Of a DNA stretch of 64,000 nucleotides, positions 2,996-54,000 are shown piece by piece. Each line of letters starts with the position of its first letter. Position 1 is the stretch's first letter. The position numbers were made by a program, and so were the translations under genes. Location: contig NC_086097.1 of the NCBI RefSeq assembly GCF_963921235.1, forward strand, positions 12,958,001-13,022,000. Direction: 5' to 3'. The notes below the pieces were generated by a model. The model searched no databases, was not told where the DNA came from, and was given only the letters and a program-made list of their open reading frames with translations. The stretch is from Mobula hypostoma (taxonomy: Eukaryota).

Positions 2996-4786
2996 GGGTT
3001 CTCATCATTAGGACAGGAAGCTGTGTGCTGTTTACTGCTTACTTGTGCTATGCACTACATGAATTTTGAGTTATATTTTGTTTTATGGGTTATGAGTGAT
3101 ATGTTTTGTGGGTGCTCCATGGCTTGGAGGAACCCTGCTTCGTTTGGTTGTATATAGGTACAGTCAGATGACAATAAACTTGAACTTGTATCAAAAGGAA
3201 CTTCTAACCCATAGAAGTGTAATATCGACAAAATGCTAGACAAACCTCACTGATTATGAGGAAGCTATTCCTATATCTATAGAGTGATGGTAGCATTTTA
3301 AAAGTATATCTTCAAGAATTTCTGTTTTTTAACTCAACTCATTTGACAATTCATGATTGATGAGGCCCTAGTTGTTCATTTTGTCAGAAGAAAGATAGGG
3401 TTAAATTGGAATGTGTGTACAGAACTTCAACAAGGATATTACCAACACTAGAGGATCTGATTTATAAGAAGTACATTTCCCATGGCAGGCAGTGATGCAG
3501 CCAGTCAGGATGCTCTCAATTGTGCCCCTGTAGAAAGCTTTTAGGATTTGGGGGCCCACACCAAACTCCTTCAACCGTCTGAGGTGAAAGAGGCACTGTT
3601 GTGCCTTTTATACCACACAGCTGGTGTGTACAGACCACATGAGATCCTTGGTGATGTGGATGTTGAGGAATTTAAAGCTGTTTACCCTCTCAGCCCCAGA
3701 TCCACTGACGTCAATAGGGGTTAGCCCGTCTCCATTCCTCCTGTAATCCACAACCACGTCCCTTGTTTTTGTGACATTGAAGGAGAGGTTGTTTTCTTGA
3801 CACCACTGTGTCAGGGTGATGACTTCTTCCCTGTTGGCCACCTTGTTATTGTTTTGATTTTTTTTGTTGTTTATCTTTGATCCCTAATTTAACATCAAGT
3901 CTTGTTCACATGTTTTATCAGTGATGTTTGCACAACAATACAACAACACAAACCAGGTCAGAAATGTTTCAGTTTTAATGTTTTGTATGTCAGTTAAGTG
4001 ATATGACCGTGGTCTAGATAATCAGCGTAAAGATGATCGAGTAATCTATCTATCAAGCAAACTTGGTGTCTGTGTTACTAAATGATGCAGAAACAGATTT
4101 TATTTTCACTATTTCTATTTAACTATCTTTCACTCTTCATATTCTTTGTTAGAAAATTTGCTTATTCTTATGCAAAATAATAAAAAGTAGATTTAAGGTG
4201 AGAGGTAATTTTTTTTTTACACAGGAAGTGGTAGGCTGTTGGAATATGATACCAGGAAGGAGATAGAATTGGAAATAATAGCAGCTTTTAAGAGCCATTT
4301 AGACAGGCACATGAAAAAGAAGGAAAGTTTGTGAAATAGGCAATGCAATGGCAGAAGGGATTACCTTCGATTTACATCATGGTCAGCACAGACTCCATGG
4401 GCTGAAGGGCCTGTGTTATGTTCTAGCTTATCACTCAGTGTAACTATCTAGCATCTTGAATGCTGTAATAAAGAATACAGACACTTTTCCACATTGGGCA
4501 GAAGTGAAATGGTCGAATTAAGTACCCCCATCATCCCAGACGTGCTTTCCTCTGGACGTGCTACCATCAAGGAGGTGATACAGGAGCCTGAAGATACGCA
4601 GGAACGATTCGTCACCTTCTGCACCAGATTTCTGAATAGATAATGAGCCCATGAACTATTCCACAGTATTTTTTACCTCTCTTCTTGTACTATTTAATTT
4701 ATTTTTCTGTATACATAATTTTTATTGTAATTTATAGCTTTTATTATTGTATATTAGAATGTACTGCTGCTGTACTATTGTCTTTG

Positions 4787-9500: not shown

Positions 9501-11923
9501 AATCTCAAAGAACTCTGATGATAAATTTTACTTTGAGATTTGAACTTTGAATTTTGACATTATTGTTTTTTTCTCTGTGTATCAGAACTGGCCATTTCTG
9601 CTTGTATCTCATCTGCAATTTTGACTCTAATTCACTTTCTCCAGCAGCAGGGCCTGACCTCTTCTACTGTTGTGTGCAATACTTGCACTGAATTTTCTGC
9701 CTTTATCTGCCAAGGTGAATCTCACAGTGTGATGCAGATAAAATTGCATTTATATATGTGCAAAATTCACCTGTGGTTTTATTCCACTGTAACAAATAAT
9801 TTCATCTGCTGAAGAACATTTGCAACAACCAATATTTGACATTTATTGTTCTTTTTGGTGAAAGTGTTGAGATACATCTCTTCCACAGCAGGTGTAAGGT
9901 GCTCCTTCTCACTGCTAACCTGCAGATCCCCCTTGGACAAAGTGTGGCACCTGCTTAGCCCCTGATCAGGGTCACATGAAGCCGTGGGAGCAGGTGGTAG
10001 ATGGTCGTATGAGCAACTGGTGCAGATCACAAGACCACTGACGCCAGGCAGCCAATCTCTGAAGAGTATTGATAAAGGCTGGGGTCACCCATCTTTTAAA
10101 GATACTCGCAGAAGAAGGCAATGACAAATGAAGGCCAAGAACAATCATGGTGATGGAAAGACCATGTCATTCGACACAGCACATAATGATGATGAATGTC
10201 CTTTGTGTAGGCTACATGGCATCCCCACCAGGACCACTAGACTAAAAGCAGTTACTTTTCCCAAACAGTAAGGCTGATCAAAGCCTCCACCTCCATGAAC
10301 CCACACCTCCAGACCCTGCCCCCATGTCTACTGCTTTATCATTTCATGTCAGAATCACTTTATGTACACACACTCATATATCTAGCGTCACTTAATGGAC
10401 ATGCAATCAATCTTTGTATATAAACTATCTCATATATTTATATTTATTGTGTTTTTAGTGTTGTGTTCTTTATCTTATTGTGTTTTGCTGTGCTGCATCA
10501 GATCTCGAGAAAAGGGGTAACAATTATTTTGTTCTCCTTTACAGTTGGAACTGACATTAAATATTTTTGAATCTTTAGAATTTCGTGATGTTTGAGTACA
10601 ATATATTTTTCAGCATGTTTGGTTTTAGATGGTCTATCGCAGAGATTCCCAACCTTCTCTATGCCATTGAGCAATACCATTAAGCAAAGGGTATGTGGAC
10701 TCCTGGACCCCCTCATCTATTGGATAAACGATAAACAATATCTTTGTCTCTGAATTTCATTGTGCTAGACGTTAAGTTTAATTTGTGCGCTATGAAACTA
10801 AAAGAAGCAACTTCAGTCCTAAGATGAGTGCTTTGGTCCATTTCTCTCTGCATTCATCAGCACTTAAACATGTAATGAAGACGTAGTGCTAAGCTCTTAT
10901 TTTATTCCACAAGTGAATTGTGTTCACTAATGCATGGTTTAAATTCTGCTTCTGGTTTTCCCTTCTTTGGGTGGGTCCCACAGGATGAAATAATTATGTT
11001 TGAAGCAGTGGATCAATTAGTGCTCGTCTCCTGAGTTTCTCCCCTTATCTCTTCTTATTGTCCGAGAGGGATATATTAGCAAACTGACACAGAGGTGGAA
11101 GGCTAATCAGTATTCCAGCTTGATGAGCGATGATAAGGAAAAGTACCAATGGAACTTGCTATTTATGTAAACCCAATTACGCTTCTCACCCACCACTTCC
11201 TTCCCACATTTAGCCTCTGTCTATTAACACTGAATGAGGCAGTAGTTTGCTAGTCAAAGTTATTGCTTTGTGCTTTGCTTTCATTATAGCTTGAGTTATA
11301 CATTGCAGAAGTTTTAAGTTCAATTTCAAGTTTATTGTTATCTGACTGTACATGTATACAACCAAATGAAACAATGTTCCTTCAGACAACAGAGTACCCT
11401 CAAAACATATATCACACACAAAATATTACTACAAGTAATTCAATAAAATATAATTCAAAATGCATGTATTATGCAGCAGAAGTAAACACTAAACAGTAAA
11501 CATCTTGCTGTCCTCGTGATAAGACCCCAGTGGTTGTAGGGTATGCATTCGTCTCACAGCTCAGTGGAAGAAGCCGTTATCCAGTGTAGCAGTTCCAGTC
11601 CTGATGCTCCTGAACTATCTCCTTAATGGTAGTGGGTCAAAGACATTGTGGGATAGGTGGCAGGGACCTTCAGCAATAATTTCGGCCCTTTGTATACATC
11701 CCTCCCAGCACAGTAGCATAGTGGTTAGCACAACTCTTTACAGTACAGTCAACCCAGATTCAATTCCTGCCACTGCCTGTAAGGAATTTGCACGTTCTTC
11801 CTGTGACCACGTGTGTTTCCTGCAGCTGCTCCGGTTTCCTGCCACAGTCCAAAGATGTTCCTGTTGGTAGGTTAATTTGTCATGAAAAATCATCCTGTGA
11901 TTAAGCTAGGATTAAATCAGGGG

Positions 11924-12175
11924 CAAATACGAGGAAATCTGCAGATGCTGGACAGTCAAGCAACACACACAAAATGCTGGTGGAACGCAGCAGGCCAAAC
12001 AGCATCCATAGGAAGAAGCACAGTCAACGTTTCGGGCCGAGACCCTTCGTCAGGACTAACTGAAAGAGGAGATAGTAAGAGATTTGAAAGTAGGAGGGGG
12101 AGGGGGACATCTGAAATGATAGGAGAAGACCGGGGGTGGGGGGTGGATCTAAGAGCTGGAAAGTTGATTGGAAAA
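11924..12175 (-). mobile_element. Penelope-like element terminal-repeat fragment inserted in an HE1-like SINE
   Basis: 13-bp TSD ATTAAATCAGGGG (11911-11923, 12176-12188); same repeat family as 30649-30861. Confidence 0.85.
12022..12057 (-). ncRNA. Minimal type I hammerhead ribozyme motif
   Basis: Minus strand: AGTC-CTGACGA-A-GGGT/CTCG/GCCC-GAAAC-GTT-GACT; stem I AGTC/GACT, stem II GGGT/GCCC. Confidence 0.75.
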
Positions 12176-24932: not shown

Positions 24933-26289
24933 CCATACCAAGTACATATTATTATCAATATACTCTACATATAGAGTATGTCACCATATACTACCTTGTG
25001 ATTCATATTCTTGAAAATATTTACTGGAAAAAAGGAAATACAAGAACAGTTATGAAGATGTATGCATAAGCAGACTGACAAACAACCAATGTGCAAAAGA
25101 CGACAAATCGTGCAAATTATTTAATAATAATAATAATACTGAGAACATGAGTTGTAGAGTCCTTGAAAGTGAATCTGTAAGTTGTGGAATCAGTTCAGAG
25201 TTAAATTGCATGAAGTTATTCATGATGGTTCAGGAGCCTGATGGTTATAGGTTATGTGTTGATACCTGCTGGCCTTCTCGCTTTTTTCTTCCCATAGCCG
25301 TGGGCATCATTCTCCATGATTCGGCATTGACCTCTCCACCAATTTTGCCCTCCAATGGATCCTTAACTTCAACTGACGATGAGTCCAGAGGAAGGCTCTC
25401 GAAGTGTATCGTTGATGGTCAATTTCTCTACGTAACCTGCTGAGTTCCTCCAGCACTTTGTGTGTTGCTCCAGATTTCCAGTATCTGCACTCCCTTGTGG
25501 CTCCACAAAGCAAATGACCCAGAGGTTACGGGCATGTTAAAATATGTACAAGTGTTTGGAACGTATGTTACTGCCTACCAGAAGCAATGAGAAAGCTGTT
25601 GTCACACAGGTCTCTTCCCCACTGCAAGTGAAGTCATGAAAAAGGGTCTCGGCCCGAAATGTCAACTGTTTATTTACTGCCGTAGATGCTGCCTGACCTG
25701 CTGAGTTCCTCCAGCATTTTGTGTGTGTTTCCACAGTGCAAATGCTGTTTAAGCGGGAGATGTCAACCACGCTACTTGCGTAGAAGAGGTGCACTGTGCT
25801 TCAAGAAGCTGTTGAGAGCTAGCTGAGACACTCAACAAATGAATACCAGCTTCTCTACATCAAAGAAGCCTGTCCTGGTGTCAAACATCAACTCCTTGGC
25901 TGCAGCAGGCATAGACGCAATTTACCCACTTTAGAGCACACATGACCAGGTACGATGTCATGCCAAATCTGAGTGGATTGTTAGCTGTTACTCTGCATGC
26001 ATTGCAGCCTGAGCTTACTGTGGGATTTATTATAAATGAGCTAGTGATAAGTACCAGAGAGATTTCAGTTTTTGCTTAAGATCAACCTTCAATGTAAAAA
26101 GAAACATTTGACAACCCAGATCTTCGAAGGTGAAGGAGCATTTACTCTCCCGCTAGAGCTTGTAATAACGTGTGTAACCTAGTCTTTCACCTGAAGATGA
26201 TATCTTGATACCAAGAGCAGCTAGGATTTGACACTCACAAGCTGTAGGGATGTCAAAAATACCGGGCTTTTAAAGAAGATTGAATACTT

Positions 26290-26740: not shown

Positions 26741-26864
26741 TAAGGGAAAACATGGAGGAATGGGACTAATAGAACAGCTCCTTTAGTAGATAGAACATCT
26801 TCAATAGTCTAAATAGCGTTCTTCTGCAGAGTAACAATTCTGTCGTTCTAACCCTACAACATTG

Positions 26865-27639
26865 TGTTACAATTTCTTAACATACCAGCAGCAGGAGATG
26901 AGAAATTGAGTCGGGTTTTTAATATTAAAATCACTATATTTATTTACATCTACTCAAAAAAATAGAAAATTAAATAAACTACTTTCTTAAACAGAAGTTA
27001 ACAGTGTTATGCATCTACAGCTCCCTTATAGTCAAACTTAGATCCTGTTCTTAACAAATCTTACTAAAGCACAGTTGTAACATGGCAGTTCAGAGAGTCC
27101 CAGTAATTCACGAAACACATGAGAGGAGAGACTTGTGGATTCATAATGCAGTGACGAGGCGATCACAATGAATTCCAAAGATTCCATGGCTAGCAAATGA
27201 AGAAACGGTTACTGAAGATCCCAGCCGAGGGATACTGTTCTGAAGTCCTTGAAGAGCAATTTCACAAAGTGACTGTCACGAAATCCACACCCATGGATTG
27301 TACAACGGACATACACGTCTCCGCAATACACAGTGTGCCGCTGATTAACCCAATCCTTTGGGTTTGTGTAAGCACTAGACTTTAACCTTCTCGATCGTGA
27401 GCTGTTCGGGATAGCTCGAAGCCTGCGATCTTCACTCTCTCTCTCTCTTTCCTTTGACTCCTCCGACTCCTTCTCAGCACTTATGTCGACATTTCTTTTA
27501 TACCATCGGCATACGTCATGAGGTAACACTCACAGATATGATACTATGGACCCCCAGTAAAATGAGAATGGGGAAACGTGACGCCCACAGTAAGTGAAAC
27601 TATGGACTCCCAGGAAAACAAAACTGTGGACACATAACA
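26865..27639 (-). repeat. 3' LTR of the Gmr1-like element
   Basis: Colinear with 33676-34766; preceded on the minus strand by a polypurine tract GGGGAGAGG (27640-27648). Confidence 0.93.
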
Positions 27640-27816
27640 CCTCTCCCCAGGAAGAGAAAATTTTGATTTGTAAGGGCAAAATTTTAACTACAATGTACAA
27701 TATGTGGAACAATACATATATGGTTATCATACAGCGCACTGCAAACTAATACAACATTTTGCAGAAGCATATACAAATAGTAAATTCCACTCCATTATTA
27801 AAATTACATTGCAGGT

Positions 27817-29480
27817 TTAACATCTGGAAAGACAGTCGACAGTTACATTATCTTTGCCTTTAATGTGAGTTATCGTGAGATCATACTCTTGCAAAATCAA
27901 GCTCCAATTCAGCAACCTTCTATTTTGTTTTTCAGCTTACTTAAAAACACCAATGGATTATGATCTGTATAAACCACAAGTGGTGTTTTGAGCTGTGCAA
28001 ACATACACATCAAAATGCTGCAAAGCCAAAATAAGTGATAATAATTCCTTTCCTATGGTGGAATAATTTATCTAATGCTCATTGAATTTCTTGGAAAAGT
28101 AAGCCACAGGTTGGTCAACATCATCATAATCATCCCTTTGTAGTTACATTGCTCCTGAAGCTTCATCACTGGCATCCACAGCTACGGAGAATGGCTTTGC
28201 AAAGTCAGGTGACCTGAGCACAGGTTGGTGACATAAGATGGCTTTCAATTTATCAACTGCCTCCTGACAAGGTTCTGTCCAAACAAACTTTTCACCCTTC
28301 TTCAGGAGGTCAATGGGAGAACAATATCAGCAAAGTTTCTTTAGAACTTGCGATAATATCCGGCCATTCCCAGAAATCTTCTAAGGACCCTTCTCCCGGT
28401 TGGAATGGGAACCTCAGAAATTGCCTGAACTTTTGCCTGAACAGGAGCCAACTTGCCTTGACCTACAACATAACCAAGATAGGTCACAGTGGCATGGGCA
28501 AATTCACTCTTAGCTAGGTTAATTGTAAGGTTGGCTTTTGAGAGCCTTTCAAACAGCTTTTCCACTGCAGAGATATGCGTTTCCCAGATGTCATTCCCCG
28601 TGACTAAATCATTAATATAAGCACCTGTGTGTTCAAAACCCTTGAATTACAGAATTAATCATTCTCTGGAATGTTCCCAGAGCATTTTTCATTCCAAATG
28701 GCAGAACATTGTATTCATACAACCCAGAAGGCTTTACAAAGGCAGAAATTTCTCTACCACTATCTGTTAATGGAACACACCAATATCCTTTGAACAGATC
28801 AATCTTTGTAAGAATCTTAGCTTTTCCAACCTTGTTTACACAATCATCCACTCTAGGGATTGGATAAGAATCTGTTTTTGTTACAACATTCACCTTTCGG
28901 TAATCAGTGCAGAATCTGATACTACCATCTGGTTTAGGTACCATGACAGAAGGTGAAGTCTAATCTGAAGTAGGAAGTCTAATAATATCATTTTCTAACA
29001 TATATTCAATTTCTTGTTCAGCAAGTTTACATTTTCAATATTCATACAAGGCATCCGTTAGTCTTGCAAGACCATAGATCTGCTCCTGGAAAGTCTTCGC
29101 TCTCCAGCGCGCAGGCCTGGGCAAGGTTGTTTGGAAGACCAGCAGTTGCCCATGCTGCAAGTTTCCCCTCTCCACGACACCAATGTTGTCCAAGGGAAGG
29201 GCATTAGGACCCATACAGCTTGGCACCGGTGTTGTCGCAGAGCAATGTGTGATTAAGTGCCTTGCTCAAGGACATAACATGTTCCCTCGGCTGGGGTTCG
29301 AACTCACGACCTTCAGGTAGCTAGTCCAATACCTTAACCACTTGGCCACGTGCCCACACACGTGTCCACATTCATACAATATGGATATTGTTTTATAGGT
29401 TTGTTATTACTCACATCTACATCACGTAAGGCCACTGTGGTTCTTTTTGAGATATTAGGAAATAAATCCTTAAATTTCAT
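27817..29480 (-). pseudogene. Gmr1-like reverse transcriptase / RNase H, disrupted
   Basis: PKPDGSIRFCTDYRKVN, KIDLFKGYW, LPFGMKNA, YIND (decayed YIDD), LRRFLGMAGYYRKF; stop at 27817-27819. Confidence 0.9.
29050..29369 (-). mobile_element. tRNA-derived SINE inserted in Gmr1 pol
   Basis: A box TGGCCAAGTGG and B box GAGTTCGAACCC on the minus strand; 10-bp TSD ATTCATACAA (29040-29049, 29370-29379). Confidence 0.88.
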
Positions 29481-30648
29481 AATTAACTAATTCACCTGCT
29501 GCCACTGCTGTGGCTGTAAATAAGCCAGTTTCTCAACAATATTTTCCAAAGTAGTCGAATTTGTCAATCTGGCTGAAATAATATTTGGTTTAAAATAGGC
29601 GTCAGATGGATCAGCTAATGAATTTCCAGAGAGCTCACATCCATCTTTGTTTACTGCAACCACCACAGCTGCAGTTTGTTTTTCATGATACAGCTTAAGT
29701 ATATGTATGTGACAAAGCTGCGTTGGCCTTCGTCTATCTGGTATTTTGACTACATAGTCCACATCATTAAGTTAAGCCACAATTTCATAGGGACCATGAA
29801 ACTTAGCTTCTAGAGGGTTTGTTTCTACAGGAAACAAAACAAGCACTTTATCTCCCAGTTTGAATGACCTCATTTTGGCTTCTTTATCATACCATTTTTC
29901 ATTCTTTCCTGGGCCGATTTTAAATTTTCCTTTGCTATGTTGCAAGCCCTTTGCAATTTGTCCTTGGACTTCAAAACATAATCTGGCAAATTAACATGCA
30001 GGTAATTGTTAACCCACTGTTCCGTTAACAATGCCAAAGGTCCTCGGACCTGGTGACTAACACCTAGGGACTCGTATACTGACTCCCTTACTACAAATAA
30101 AAGTAAATGAACTCCCTCATCCCAATCCTTCTCATTTTCAATACATAATGTCCTAATCATGGTTTTGAGGATAGAATGGAATCTCTCTAAGGCCCCTTGG
30201 GATTCTGGATGATATGCAGATGATGTAATCTGTTTGGCTCCCAGTTTATAAACTACTTGCTGGAATAATCCTGACATAAAATTACTCACTTGATCAGACC
30301 GAATTTCTTTAGGCAAGCCAAATAAAGTAAAAAAAAAACACGTTATGAGAGCCTTCGACACAATTTTGGCTTTCATATTTCTGAGAGGTATTGCCTCTGG
30401 AAATCTAGAAACTGTACACATGATAGTTAGCAAATACTGATGAGAAGCTTTAGTCTTTGGCAATAGGCCAACACAATCCACAATAAATTTAGAAAAGGGT
30501 TCACCAAATGCAGGAATAGGCTGCAGTGGGGCCACTGGAGTGACCTGATTAGGTTTACCCACAAGCTGACAAGTGTGACAAGTCCTGCAAAATTTTTCAA
30601 CATCTTTCCTCAAACTAGGCCAGAAAAACTGTCTTAAAACATTGTTCA

Positions 30649-30861
30649 ACCAACATACATCAAAGTTGCTGGTGAACGCAGCAGGCCAAGCAGCATCTAT
30701 AGGAAGAGGCGCAGTCGACGTTTCAGGCCTGACGAAGGGTCTCGGCCTGAAACGTCGACTGCGCCTCTTCCTATAGATGCTGCTTGACCTGCTGCGTTCA
30801 CCAGCAACTTTGATGTATGTTGCTTGAATTTCCAGCATCTGCAGAATTCCTGTTGTTTGCG
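30649..30861 (+). mobile_element. Penelope-derived fold-back element with hammerhead core
   Basis: 79-bp arms at 30651-30729 and 30744-30822 (1 mismatch); 15-bp TSD TTAAAACATTGTTCA (30634-30648, 30862-30876). Confidence 0.9.
30725..30760 (+). ncRNA. Minimal hammerhead ribozyme motif (stem I weakened by the inversion junction)
   Basis: CTGACGA-A-GGGT/CTCG/GCCT-GAAAC-GTC-GACT. Confidence 0.65.
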
Positions 30862-31047
30862 TTAAAACATTGTTCACAGTTTTCTTCACACCTAGATGGC
30901 CACCCAAGGGTTTACAATGGGCCAAAGTTAAAATCTCATTCCTATAGGCTTTAGGAACTACAACCTGGTGAACAATTGCCCATTCCTCACTTGCAGGAAC
31001 ATCAGGTGGTCTCCAGTTCCTCATTAACACTCCATCTTTGAAATAAT

Positions 31048-31690
31048 GGCATTTATAGCGAGAGGATTCGAGTACAGGAGCAGGGAGGTACTACTGCAGT
31101 TGTACAAGGCCTTGGTGAGACCACAACGGGAGTATTGTGTGCAGTTTTGGTTCCCTAATCTGAGGAAAGACATCCTTGCCATAGAGGGAGTACAAAGAAG
31201 GTTCACCAGATTGATTCCTGGGATGGCAGGACTTTCATATGAAGAAAGACTGGATGAACTGGGCTTGTACTCGTTGGAATTTAGAAGATTGAGGGGGGAT
31301 CTGATTGAAACGTATAAAATCCTAAACGGATTGGACAGGCTAGATGCAGGAGGATTGTTCCCGATGTTGGGGAAGTCCAGAACAAGGGGTCACAGTTTGA
31401 GGATAAAGGGGAAGCCTTTTAGGACCGAGATTAGGAAAAACTTCTTCACACAGAGAGTGGTGAATCTGTGGAATTCTCTGCCACAGGAAGCAGTTGAGGC
31501 CAGTTCATTGGCTATATTTAAGAGGGAGTTAGATATGGCCCTTGTGGCTACGGGGATCAGGGGGTATGGAGGGAAGGCTGGGGCGGGGTTCTGAGTTGGA
31601 TGATCAGCCATGATCATAATAAATGGCGGTGCAGGCTCGAAGGGCTGAATGGCCTACTCCTGCACCTATTTTCTATGTTTCTATGTTTCT
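31048..31690 (+). mobile_element. Young CR1 LINE 3' fragment inserted in Gmr1 pol
   Basis: Uninterrupted ORF 31046-31594; (TTCTATGT)n tail; ATAAT duplicated at 31043-31047 and 31691-31695. Confidence 0.92.
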
Positions 31691-31695
31691 ATAAT

Positions 31696-33565
31696 ACCCT
31701 ACTGGCACTTTATCAATCTCCTCACCTGAGAGAGCTTTTTCTCTTAAAGCTTCAATCTCAGGGTCTCTGCTCTGTTCTGCTATAAACTCCTTCATAGACA
31801 GAGATAAATCTTTATTATCAGATTTCATACCTGGATCCTCGTGAAACAATGAAGTCAGAAAAGTCCCTGACAAGTCATCAAAATCTGACTCCCTATTTGG
31901 GCTATCATGAGTAGCCGAATCATGCTGCACAAGACCACCTGCATTGGCAAGTTTTTTGGCTCTAGCTCGAGTTACTGCACACGCTGGATAAATGTTAGGG
32001 TCTATCTTTGAATCATCTTTGATTGGCTTGGTTGTCAGCTGCACTGCAGGAACAACTTTACCACCTGCTAGGTCAATCCATAACAACAAAGAAATGCCTT
32101 CCACCGGTAAACTGGGTCGTAGTCCTATTTTAACAAGTCCTGAGACTAACTCTGACTTCAAAATTACCTTGTGCAGAGGTGCAGGAACAACGTCACACCC
32201 AATACCTCGAACAAGATTTACCTCATCAATGGCAGACTCATCACCAAACTTTAGAACACTGTGTAACATAAATGACTGAGAAGCCACAGTATCTCGAAGA
32301 ATTTTCACCGGTATCAGGGTTGACCATTCCTTTACTGAAACATATCCATCTAACGTAAAATGAAGGAATTCTTTCCTAACTTGACCAGACATTTTAGTCA
32401 ATGACAGAGCTTCATCAGAATGCGTAGAACCCTGTGGGTTCACAGGTGTTTCAACATTTTGAACACAGGCTTCTGGAACTGCCTCCTTTTCCTTCTTCTT
32501 TTTCAGAAGAAAACAGTTAGCCATAACATGACCAGGTTTCCTACAATAGTGACAAATAGGACCAGAGGGCTTCTCCTTTAATTGTTTCCCTTCATCCTTA
32601 CCTTTGTCATGAGACCCAGATTTGATTTCCGGTTTACCTTGACTATCCATGCTACTCTTTCAGAAGGTCTTACTCGGGGTAAACTTAAACTTGTGGGTTA
32701 AGGCAAACTCATCTGCTAATTTAGCAGATTCTTGCAAAGTGGCAGCATCCTTTCCATCTAAATGTGCCTTTATATCAGTATGGATGCACCTTTTAAATTC
32801 TTCAATTAAAATTAACTCTTTCAGTTTCTCAAAATTACCATCCACATTTTTAGATGTGCACTATCTTTTGAAACACACAGATTTCTCATAAGCAAATTCC
32901 ACATGAGTCTGGTTCACAGATTTCCTCAAATTCCTAAACCTTTGCCTATAGGCTTCTGTAACCGATTCATAGGCTTTAAGTACAGCCTGTTTCACAATCT
33001 CATAATTAGCTGCATCTCCAATTGATAGGGCAGAATAAGCCTGCTGAGCCTTACCCTTAAATACACTCTGTAACAAGAGAGGCCAACTTTCTTTCGGCCA
33101 CCTTAGGCTCTGAGCAGCTTTCTCAAAATGCTGGAAGTATTTATCAACCATAGCCTCATCAAATGAGGGGACCAATTTAACTTCCTAACTGGCCACAAAC
33201 GGTACAACCAGCTCCCTAGAGCCAGAATTTTGCCTCTTGAGTCTTAACCTCTCTATCTTTATCTCAAACTGCCTTTGTTTGTCTCTTTCTCGTTCCTCAA
33301 CCTCTAATTTAAATCACTCTAACTTCATTTGTTCCAATCGTAACTGGATCTCAAGTTTACTTTCAGGAAACCTCTCTAATACCTCCTTCTCAAATTCCTC
33401 CTTATCTATGTAGTGCTCAACTATTACCCTCTGAATCTGCACCTTTTTCATTGAACGTTTCACCTCAGTAAGTTTTAGATTTCTAGCAATGGCCAACAAG
33501 TCGTCTGTTCTGGCATCCCTTAATGCCTTAGGGTCTGGCGTTGCCAGGAATGCCCCAATATCATT
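31696..33565 (-). pseudogene. Gmr1-like gag (SCAN-related capsid region, CCHC knuckle) and protease, frameshifted
   Basis: ORFs 33314-33610, 32861-33175, 32660-32845 and 31673-32650: YFQHFEKAAQSLRWPKESW, KELILIEEFKRC, CHYCRKPGHVMANC, LRDTVASQS (DTG decayed). Confidence 0.88.
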
Positions 33566-33653
33566 GCAGCTGGATTCCCCACACAAGTCAATCAAAAGTG
33601 TTGTAACCAATGAGATCGATAATTAAACAATCAATAAGCTCCAATTTTGTTCA

Positions 33654-33672
33654 TCTCGTAGACGAGCCCCCA
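33654..33672 (-). promoter_or_regulatory. Primer-binding site, tRNA-Pro type
   Basis: Minus strand reads TGGGGGCTCGTC just inside the 5' LTR, matching the tRNA-Pro PBS TGGGGGCTCGTCC. Confidence 0.85.
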
Positions 33673-33675
33673 ATT

Positions 33676-34766
33676 TGTTACGATTTCGTAAAGTACCAGC
33701 AGCAAAAGATGACAAATTGAGTCGGGTTTTAATACTAAAACCACTATATTTATTTAGTGTTGGCGTGTGGCCAAGTGGTTAAGGTATTCTTCTAGTTATT
33801 TGAAGGTCACTAGTTCGAGCCTTGGCTGAGGCAATGTGTTGTGTCCTTGAGCAAGGCACTTATCCACACATTGCTCTGCGACGACACCGGTGCCAAGCTG
33901 TATGGGTCCTAATGCCTTTCCCTTGGACAACATTGGTGGTGTGGAAAGGGGAGACTTTCAGCATGGGCAACTGCTGGTCTTCCATACAACCTTGCCCAGG
34001 CCTGCGCCCTGGAAACCTTCCAAGGCGTAAATCCATAGTCTCATGAGACTAACGGATGCCTATATGTTTATTTACATCTACTCAAAAATATAGAAAATTA
34101 AATAAACTACTTTCTTAAACAGAAGTTAACAGTGTTATGAGTCTATAGTTCCCTTACAGTCAAACTTAGAACCTGTTCTTAACAAATCTTGATCAAGCAC
34201 AGTCATAACATGGCCGTTCAGAGAGTCCCAGTAATTCACAAAATAGGTGAGAGGAGAGACTTGTGGATTCACAATACAGCGACGAGGCGATCATGATGAA
34301 TTCCAAAGATTCCATGGCTAGCGAACGAAGAATCGGTTACTGAAGATCCCAGCCGACGGATACTGTTCCAAAGTCCATGAAGAGCGATATCACAAAGTGA
34401 CTGTCACAAAATCCACACCCATGGATCATACGAAGGACAGAGATGTCTCCAAAATGCACAGTGTGCCGCAGATTAACCCAAACCTTTGGGTGTGGGTGAG
34501 CATTAGACTTTACCCTTCTCGATCGTGAGCTGTTCCCGGATAGCTCGAAGTCTGCGATCTTCACTCTCTCTCCCTTTCCTTCGACTCCTCCGACTCCTTC
34601 TCAACACTTAAGTCCACATTTCTTTTATTCTGTCAGCATACGTCATAAGGTAACGCTCACAGAAACAAAACTGTGGACTCCCAGTAAAATGAGAATGGGG
34701 ACACGTGATAGCCACAGTAAAAAAAACTATGGACTCCCAGGAAAACAAAACTGTGGACATGTAACA
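33676..34766 (-). repeat. 5' LTR of the Gmr1-like element (interrupted by a SINE)
   Basis: Colinear with 26865-27639 once 33757-34062 is removed; followed on the minus strand by the PBS. Confidence 0.93.
33757..34062 (+). mobile_element. tRNA-derived SINE (same family as 29050-29369) inserted in the 5' LTR
   Basis: A/B boxes; TSD TATATTTATTTA / TATGTTTATTTA; absent from the 3' LTR. Confidence 0.88.
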
Positions 34767-53157: not shown

Positions 53158-53375
53158 CCACAAAATGCTGGAGAAATTCAGCAGGCCAGGCACCATCTAT
53201 AGGAAAGAGTAAACAGTTGATGTTTCAGGCCAAGACCTTTCATGAGTCCTGATGAAGAATTTCAGCCTGAAACGTTGACTGTTTATACTTTTCCACAGAT
53301 GCTGGCTGGCCTGCTGAGTTTCTCCAGCATTTTGTGTGCATCACTTTGATTTCCAGCAACTGCAGATCTTCTCTT
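53158..53375 (+). mobile_element. Penelope-derived fold-back element, older copy; hammerhead core at 53245-53280
   Basis: Imperfect palindrome CACAAAATGCTGGAG...CTCCAGCATTTTGTG; AGTC-CTGATGA...GAAAC-GTT-GACT with stem II decayed. Confidence 0.8.
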
Positions 53376-53654
53376 TTTTAAATTTTATTCCCAGCCATTT
53401 CTGGCATCCCCAAGGCTGTATGCTTGAAACGGCAGTAAGCAAAACAGTTTTAAGTTGTCCTACTGCTTATTTCTTGTCAACTATCAGTGACAAAAATCAC
53501 TCTTTTTTGAACACAAGCATACACTACTGATTATCTAAAAATTGTTCACTTGAAGCACTGTGTAATGTCTAACAGCCACAGAAGCACACTTGAATGACCA
53601 TACTAAGTACTATAGTGCCCCAAATAAATGGAATCCCAGCTATTTTCTTGATTA

Positions 53655-54000
53655 GTTTTCGTTCTTTAGAAGTTGTACCACCTCCTCCTTCACCATTCCC
53701 CCATCCCCTTTTCGCTCTCTCACCTTATCACCTTGCCTGCCCATCACCTCCCTCTGGTAGTCCTCTCCCCCCCACCCCTTTTCTTTCTTCCCTGGCCTTC
53801 TGTCCTCTCCTATTAGATCCCACCTTCTCCAGCCCTGTATCTCTTTCACCAATCATCTTCCCAGCTCTTTACTTCATCCCTCCTTCTCCTGGTTTCACCT
53901 ATCACCTTGCATTTCTCCCTCCCCTCCCCCCACCTTTTAACTCTACTCCTTAGATGCTGCTTGACCTGCTGAGTTCCTCCAGCATTTTGTATATGTTGCT
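53655..54000 (+). mobile_element. Penelope-like 3' end fragment
   Basis: Pyrimidine-rich tract followed by AGATGCTGCTTGACCTGCTGAGTTCCTCCAGCATTTTGT. Confidence 0.75.

What the first reader, a model, noticed from the sequence alone, without database searches (positions are those of the whole stretch)
30634..30876. Hammerhead-bearing 213-bp fold-back retroelement inserted in-frame into an integrase zinc-binding domain
Seen: a near-perfect hairpin (79-bp arms, one mismatch) flanked by a 15-bp TSD. Insert plus TSD is 228 bp, or 76 codons, with no stop on the coding strand, so the integrase ORF reads through (NNVL occurs twice) between the HH and CC residues. The hairpin centre holds CTGACGA-stem-GAAAC-GTC. 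Known: Penelope-like elements carry minimal hammerheads in their terminal repeats and often integrate with an inverted 5' repeat. Inference: this is either an extremely truncated PLE insertion or a self-contained non-coding ribozyme retroposon. The open frame may be chance (a few percent for about 71 codons), and the host element is broken elsewhere.
Basis: partly seen in the sequence, partly recalled or inferred. Interest (0 to 1): 0.72.

Follow-up and report, generated by a model that had tools for sequence, protein, structure and literature searches.

The report
Short Penelope hairpin in dead retrotransposon
This 213-base hairpin is a real but ordinary, very short two-ended insertion of a high-copy Penelope-type jumping gene that landed in a broken retrotransposon, so the open reading frame is likely chance; the one point of interest is that such insertions were likely made by copying one RNA from both cut DNA strands.

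Summary
Observation confirmed: 213-bp insert, 15-bp TSD, 79-bp arms with one mismatch, open host frame between the integrase HH and CC residues. It is not a self-contained ribozyme retroposon. It is the shortest class of head-to-head insertion (inverted pLTR plus 39-nt tail) of a young coding Penelope-like element: full-length RT + GIY-YIG copy in L093; 17,149 exact arm matches genome-wide. Junctions differ in 32 of 32 position-sampled palindromes. The 16 copies sharing this junction carry the tail on either arm (7/9) and four haplotypes, so they arose separately. The hammerhead has a broken stem I and is buried in the hairpin (+43 kcal/mol); 0 of 97 arms start at its cut site. The insert is absent from 18 of 18 host paralogs, 12 in-frame stops lie upstream, and about 5% of such insertions would read through. 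Residual interest: one tailed plus one tail-less arm in 30 of 32 pairs, with family variants mirrored between arms, favours twin priming on one RNA. The scan has reported this pattern before on other DNA, this genome included.

The parts
30634..30648 (.). Left copy of the 15-bp target-site duplication
   Evidence: identical to 30862-30876; present once in host paralogs
30649..30729 (-). Inverted, tail-less pLTR arm (element positions about +93 to +15, counting hammerhead C3 as 0); lacks the CTGACGA half of the ribozyme
30725..30729 (.). Junction: 5-nt imperfect microhomology (AGGCC from the inverted arm against AGTCC of the parent); recurs in 16 loci
   Evidence: 5-nt overlap of the two alignments to the parent
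30729..30760 (+). Minimal type I hammerhead motif (C3 30729; stem II 30737-30748; C17 30756), stem I damaged and motif sequestered in the hairpin
   Evidence: sequence; constrained fold costs +42.8 kcal/mol here against +7.8 in the parent pLTR
30744..30822 (+). Direct pLTR arm
   Evidence: 98.5% identical over 133 nt to the pLTR of the full-length copy L093
30823..30861 (+). 39-nt one-sided 'tail', continuous in the parent with the start of the long ORF frame
   Evidence: tail defined in PMC8557442, PMC11167929
30862..30876 (.). Right copy of the TSD; its first TT also matches the parent's next bases
26860..34766 (-). Host Gmr1-type LTR retrotransposon (gag, protease region, integrase, then RT); LTRs about 26860-27640 and 33671-34766, 88.5% identical over 706 nt; broken
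31046..31690 (+). Young LINE 3' fragment (CR1-like by recalled resemblance) interrupting the host pol frame upstream of the integrase with 8 stops

Best explanation
The hairpin is a very short head-to-head insertion of a young, protein-coding Penelope-like element that sits in a broken Gmr1-type retrotransposon, and it was likely made in one event in which both cut target strands primed copying of the same element RNA. Shown: both arms are pLTR sequence of a coding RT + GIY-YIG element present in full length in this genome; such palindromes range from about 190 bp to over 2 kb, have 13-17-bp TSDs, differ in their junctions, and nearly always pair one tailed arm with one tail-less arm. Inferred: the element's endonuclease makes a staggered cut of about 15 bp; one 3' end primes reverse transcription at the tail end (+128 to +142) and the other at the internal site about 39 nt upstream (+92 to +102); both cDNAs run off or stall near the front of the hammerhead, probably close to the RNA's 5' end, and are joined by microhomology. 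The hammerhead is a passenger, predicted to be inactive in this copy. The open frame is coincidence with no product.
For: Parent: L093 holds pLTR, a 1038-codon frame and pLTR; Pfam RVT_1 E 4e-5 and GIY-YIG E 6e-4, both below the gathering scores; the DKG, YIDD and CCHH letters are in the translation. 17,149 exact matches of a 35-nt arm word, 0 for the reversed control, against 16 for this junction. Position-ordered sample: 32 of 32 junctions distinct; 30 of 32 pairs have one long and one short outer end (binomial p 3e-8 against free choice), although unpaired copies use the two ends 18:14; 56 of 56 in the similarity- or pattern-selected set; inner ends of the two arms correlate (rho 0.64, p 7e-5, unbiased set). 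Family variants are mirrored between arms: 74 of 76 (56% expected), 81 of 85 (68%), 84 of 85 (86%); a CpG-decay site is not (74 of 85, 88% expected). Either arm may reach further (13 tail-less, 11 tailed, 6 ties). In vitro, an anole PLE protein cuts and extends both strands and starts at two sites bounding the tail (PMC11167929). Host: 12 in-frame stops upstream, LTRs 88.5% identical, 18 of 18 paralogs empty.
Against: Mirrored variants would also arise if two RNAs from one source locus were used. The inner-end correlation is absent in the selected set (rho 0.21, p 0.12; those copies were picked to be short). Two of 32 pairs are not long/short (L121, L133), and one counted as long has a complex end (L159). 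In 1 of 8 long pairs the arms are no closer to each other than to other copies (L121). The neighbouring LINE fragment is also young (98-99% to other copies), so its order against the hairpin is unknown. No biochemistry or RNA-end data for this family.
Confidence: 0.9

Rival explanations
1. The hairpin is a self-contained non-autonomous retroposon (retrozyme-like): the 213-nt unit is itself transcribed, processed by its hammerhead and re-inserted by the PLE enzyme.
For: 16 loci share the exact junction; L002 differs from the window copy at one base; hammerhead core letters are present; non-LTR retrozymes are reported as PLE derivatives and in one chondrichthyan (10.64898/2026.07.22.740005).
Against: Those 16 carry the tail on the ribozyme arm in 7 and on the other arm in 9, and show four haplotypes mirrored in both arms; the junction is a 4-of-5 microhomology, and another junction recurs likewise (9 loci at -6/-6). 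No tandem array; stem I is broken; the ribozyme fold costs +42.8 kcal/mol; 0 of 97 arms begin at +26 to +30, where cleavage products would start.
Confidence: 0.04
2. Same parent element, but the second arm is made by fold-back: the first cDNA snaps back on itself and is copied, or an antisense RNA self-primes (the self-priming idea of PMC3846280).
For: Explains mirrored variants and correlated inner ends; microhomology at junctions.
Against: A copied-back arm cannot carry a tail absent from its template, so the tailed arm should always reach further; it does so in only 11 of 30 pairs, and the tail-less arm in 13. The fixed short end is also the 3' end of 14 of 32 unpaired copies, so it is a priming site in its own right.
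Confidence: 0.12
3. The in-frame insertion was tolerated or selected, giving an integrase with a 76-residue loop in its zinc-binding domain.
For: The frame is open across the insert, and the integrase catalytic D, D, E letters are present in the 406-codon stretch.
Against: The 406-codon stretch starts inside the LINE fragment; 4 point stops in gag and 8 stops in the LINE fragment precede it, and frame changes and stops follow. 0 of 18 paralogs share the insert. Chance read-through is 4-5% per short insertion, in a family with thousands of copies.
Confidence: 0.02

Closest known systems
EN+ Penelope-like elements with inverted 5'-truncated pLTR and one-sided 30-40-bp tail (PMC8557442 Fig. 2 legend; Adineta Pen2a_Av, PMC3846280)
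   Same: Head-to-head inverted pLTR, 39-nt tail at one end, long TSD, hammerhead in the pLTR, parent with RT and C-terminal GIY-YIG.
   Different: Reduced to the two termini only (213 bp); TSD 15 bp against 8-10 bp in the rotifer examples; stem II closes G.U in this subfamily.
Anolis Poseidon element PAc (PMC11167929)
   Same: Two fixed 3' ends bounding the tail; AT-rich targets; element ends do not coincide with the hammerhead cut site.
   Different: The parent here has the CX4CX2C linker of the Neptune/Nematis type (L091, L092); the sections read do not analyse how inverted pairs form.
Metazoan minimal hammerheads of PLE pLTRs (PMC4209133)
   Same: Type I topology, extra base between 9 and 10.1, palindromic ACGT in place of helix III.
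   Different: In this copy stem I has a G.A mismatch, G10.1-C11.1 is G.U, and the motif is paired to its own complement.
Non-LTR retrozymes (PMC7229834; 10.64898/2026.07.22.740005)
   Same: Short, non-coding, PLE-related, type I hammerhead, long TSD.
   Different: Retrozymes are head-to-tail tandem repeats cut into unit RNAs and circles; this is a single head-to-head palindrome with one ribozyme copy and variable junctions.
LINE-1 twin priming (recalled, not read here)
   Same: Both target strands prime on the RNA, giving an inverted 5' part.
   Different: In L1 the two cDNAs cover different parts of the RNA; here both cover the same part and start at two fixed sites.

Membership tests
EN+ Penelope-like element insertion | Derived from an element with one ORF of PLE-type RT plus C-terminal GIY-YIG | tested here: met
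   L093 1038-codon frame; RVT_1 and GIY-YIG hits (below gathering scores); DKG and CCHH letters in the translations
EN+ Penelope-like element insertion | pLTRs in direct partial tandem or inverted arrangement | tested here: met
   direct pLTRs at 4289 and 7790 in L093; inverted in L092 and in the window
EN+ Penelope-like element insertion | 30-40-bp tail at one end only | tested here: met
   39 nt at 30823-30861; one-sided in 30 of 32 and 56 of 56 pairs
EN+ Penelope-like element insertion | Hammerhead motif in the pLTR | tested here: met
   core letters and stems I and II in the parent; Rfam has no matching model at E<=1
Neptune clade | CX2-5CXXC linker between RT and EN (shared with Nematis) | tested here: met
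   CKRNKCYTC in L091 and L092; L093 reads another frame over this stretch (definition from PMC8557442)
Neptune clade | RT phylogeny with named references | not tested
   no reference set fetched, no tree built
Non-LTR retrozyme | Head-to-tail tandem units each with a hammerhead | tested here: not met
   single head-to-head palindrome
Non-LTR retrozyme | Copies share a fixed unit | tested here: not met
   32 of 32 junctions distinct; same-junction copies differ in tail side and haplotype
Non-LTR retrozyme | Self-cleavage and circular RNA | not testable with these tools
   only contigs available; the fold penalty argues against it
Gmr1-type Gypsy element (host) | Integrase upstream of RT within LTRs | tested here: met
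   rve and H2C2 at 29873-31090, RVT_1 at 28344-28959 on the minus strand; definition in PMC8220671; no tree built

The most novel reading that the evidence does not exclude
Penelope elements build their inverted ends by double priming on one RNA molecule: the two nicked target strands are assigned, one each, to the tail-end and the internal start site, both copy the same segment, and the cDNAs are joined head to head near the RNA's 5' end. This young family, with thousands of near-identical copies, is a natural data set that makes the model directly testable.
Probability: 0.55. Interest if true: 0.5.

Novelty: new member of a known kind. Interest (0 to 1): 0.22.

Why it matters
The locus itself changes little: it is one of thousands of PLE stubs, and the in-frame reading has no consequence in a broken host. 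The family statistics bear on an open question, how PLE integration produces inverted pLTRs and a one-sided tail, for which PMC11167929 says later steps are unvalidated and PMC3846280 proposed self-priming. Strict long/short pairing, mirrored variants and either arm reaching further point to double priming on one RNA and give a clear in vitro test. For annotation, such hairpins can be mistaken for miRNA precursors, MITEs or retrozymes.

Tried and rejected
Rfam scan: no hammerhead match; miRNA hits are hairpin artefacts far below gathering scores. Master-copy model for the 16 same-junction loci: rejected. Hammerhead-cut RNA as template: 0 of 97 arms start at the cut. Post-insertion homogenisation of arms as the cause of mirroring: disfavoured, since a CpG-decay site is not mirrored. 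Dating the host's death by the LINE fragment failed, as it is also young; the 4 point stops in gag and the LTR divergence serve instead. Sequencing runs: no RNA holder listed; contigs laid cannot show RNA ends or strand, and no listed contig bridged either host/insert junction, which is no evidence either way. Genome-wide counts of one-tailed against two-tailed palindromes were not obtained, so the statistics rest on 32 + 56 pairs. Literature searches for Penelope + twin priming + inverted (2 unrelated papers) and for elasmobranch Neptune elements (2 unrelated papers) found no description in the held library; subscription papers and repeat databases are not covered, and the supplements of the papers were not read. 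Look-up of earlier findings by sequence returned nothing.

Full report
Observation. A 15-bp duplication (30634-30648, 30862-30876) flanks a 213-bp insert whose arms (30651-30729, 30744-30822) pair over 79 bp with one mismatch; the fold is far beyond shuffles (z -25.3, 0 of 200). Insert plus one TSD is 76 codons, and the only stop-free frame of six is the host's integrase frame, splitting a Pfam Integrase_H2C2 match between its His and Cys pairs. The hammerhead core letters are present, with the predicted cut after 30756. Rfam returned no hammerhead match.

Parent element. A search of the 3.48-Gb own genome gave 40 scored full-length matches at 92-100% out of 1,739 candidates. Following copies with longer bodies led to coding copies. 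L093 has a pLTR, a 1038-codon open frame and a second direct pLTR preceded by a partial tandem; L092 has an inverted 5' copy. The protein hits RVT_1 (E 4e-5) and GIY-YIG (E 6e-4), both under Pfam's gathering scores, and shows DKG, YIDD and the CCHH arrangement. L091 and L092 also show the CX4CX2C linker that PMC8557442 (passages) assigns to Neptune and Nematis; no tree was built. The window's right arm and tail are 98.5% identical to the L093 pLTR over 133 nt. A 35-nt arm word has 17,149 exact matches, the reversed control none. The organism is probably a cartilaginous fish; that is my recollection of similar repeats, not a call result.

Is the hairpin a unit that copies itself? Sixteen loci share the exact junction. 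In 7 the tail is on the ribozyme-bearing arm and in 9 on the other arm, and two family variants occur in all four combinations, mirrored in both arms. The junction is a 5-nt overlap with one mismatch, and a second junction recurs in 9 selected loci. For a less biased view I took the first 100 matches listed (C1, 0-15.7 Mb), fetched 87 of them (all 24 close head-to-head pairs, the window included, and 39 of 52 others; the last 13 were left out) and mapped them on L093. They gave 32 head-to-head pairs, with 32 different junctions, added lengths from 185 bp to over 2.3 kb, and TSDs of 13-17 bp in 29 of 32 (one mismatch allowed). So each hairpin was made afresh from the coding element's RNA, and the window copy is near the short end of a continuum. 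This architecture is published: an inverted 5'-truncated copy and a 30-40-bp tail often at one end only (PMC8557442 passages; PMC3846280 passages).

Ribozyme. In the parent the motif is a minimal type I hammerhead as described in PMC4209133 (parts 1-2 of 4 read), which reports no activity for a monomer and low activity for dimers. In this copy the junction changes one base of stem I to a G.A mismatch, stem II closes with G.U, and forcing the ribozyme fold costs 42.8 kcal/mol against 7.8 in the parent pLTR. The antisense arm is transcribed first on the + strand, so the motif would pair as it emerges (inference). Of 97 arms, 57 begin between -45 and +20 and none at +26 to +30 (six long arms run past the reference), so cleaved RNA is not the template. 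This agrees with PMC11167929 (parts 1-2 of 4 read), where ribozyme mutants insert normally.

Reading frame. The host is a Gmr1-type element, with integrase before RT (PMC8220671 passages). Its LTRs are 88.5% identical over 706 nt, whereas the hairpin differs from its closest copy at 1 of 213 bases, so the hairpin came much later. In the integrase frame there are 4 point stops in gag and 8 stops in a 645-bp LINE fragment upstream; frame changes, stops and another insertion follow. The 406-codon ORF starts inside the LINE fragment. All 18 host paralogs among the 40 scored candidates have the empty site. Using real copies, the chance that a short insertion keeps a given host frame open is 4.8% (21 copies, the window's included) or 4.3% (54 selected copies). 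With thousands of insertions in a genome rich in old transposon ORFs, such cases are expected.

Mechanism. Outer ends fall at two sites, +92 to +102 and +128 to +142. Unpaired copies use them 14:18, but pairs have one of each in 30 of 32 (p 3e-8) and 56 of 56 selected cases; the exceptions are L121 and L133, and L159 is complex. Family variants are mirrored between arms (74/76, 81/85, 84/85 against 56%, 68%, 86% expected), while a CpG-decay site is not (74/85 against 88%), and 7 of 8 long pairs are closer within than between copies. Inner ends correlate in the unbiased set (rho 0.64) but not in the selected one (0.21). The tail-less arm reaches further in 13 pairs, the tailed arm in 11, with 6 ties; simple fold-back requires the tailed arm to reach further. 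Together with the in vitro finding that a PLE protein cuts and extends both strands from two start sites bounding the tail (PMC11167929), the best model is double priming on one RNA with microhomology joining. Two RNAs from one source locus cannot be excluded. Searches found no paper stating this in the held library.

Comparison with retrozymes. PMC7229834 (passages) and 10.64898/2026.07.22.740005 (part 1 of 5 and passages) define non-LTR retrozymes as tandem units processed to linear and circular RNA. This insert fails the tandem and fixed-unit tests. PMC3846280's self-priming proposal is the published rival.

Earlier scan notes: 682 findings in at least 48 genomes hold the same key words, and several follow-ups reach the same double-priming reading, one in this genome. 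I had noted the test and run the counts before seeing them; they are unchecked notes and not independent support. The idea that inner ends mark the RNA's start is stated in them and fits my 57 of 97 count, but I did not test it.

Verdict. A real feature and a new member of a known kind; the ribozyme-retroposon and functional in-frame readings are not supported. Interest 0.22, carried by the mechanistic statistics rather than by this locus.

Noticed in passing
window 11923-12057, 53166-53379, 1004-1078, 25642-25729, 53947-54000: Older copies of related PLE termini (68-85% to the insert); 53166-53379 is another palindrome, and the 11923-12057 copy keeps the G-C pair closing stem II that the young subfamily has as G.U.
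   Followed up: partly
L093 4262-4282: A pyrimidine tract ending in CAG lies directly before stem I of the hammerhead, like a splice acceptor; PMC4209133 notes an intron end at helix I in the fly element. Contigs laid could not test it.
   Followed up: partly
L003 / L109: A copy with the same junction whose 3' end runs on to about +269, into the ORF start, so priming sometimes occurs downstream of the tail.
   Followed up: no
window 31046-31690: Young LINE 3' fragment (98-99% to 39 other scored copies) ending in TTTCTATG repeats, inserted 170 bp from the hairpin in the same host; CR1 label from recall.
   Followed up: partly
window 29049-29369 and 33757-34061: Two copies of a ~310-bp repeat in opposite orientation (88% alike over 257 nt), one in the host RT region and one in its upstream LTR.
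   Followed up: no
L030; L173 6224-6369: A hairpin inserted into another copy's pLTR (L030), and an older PLE hairpin (85-87%) at a different site in a paralog of the same host family.
   Followed up: no
L093 4374-7487: The 1038-codon frame stays open but reads another frame across the zinc-finger linker that L091 and L092 show, so this copy may not be functional.
   Followed up: no
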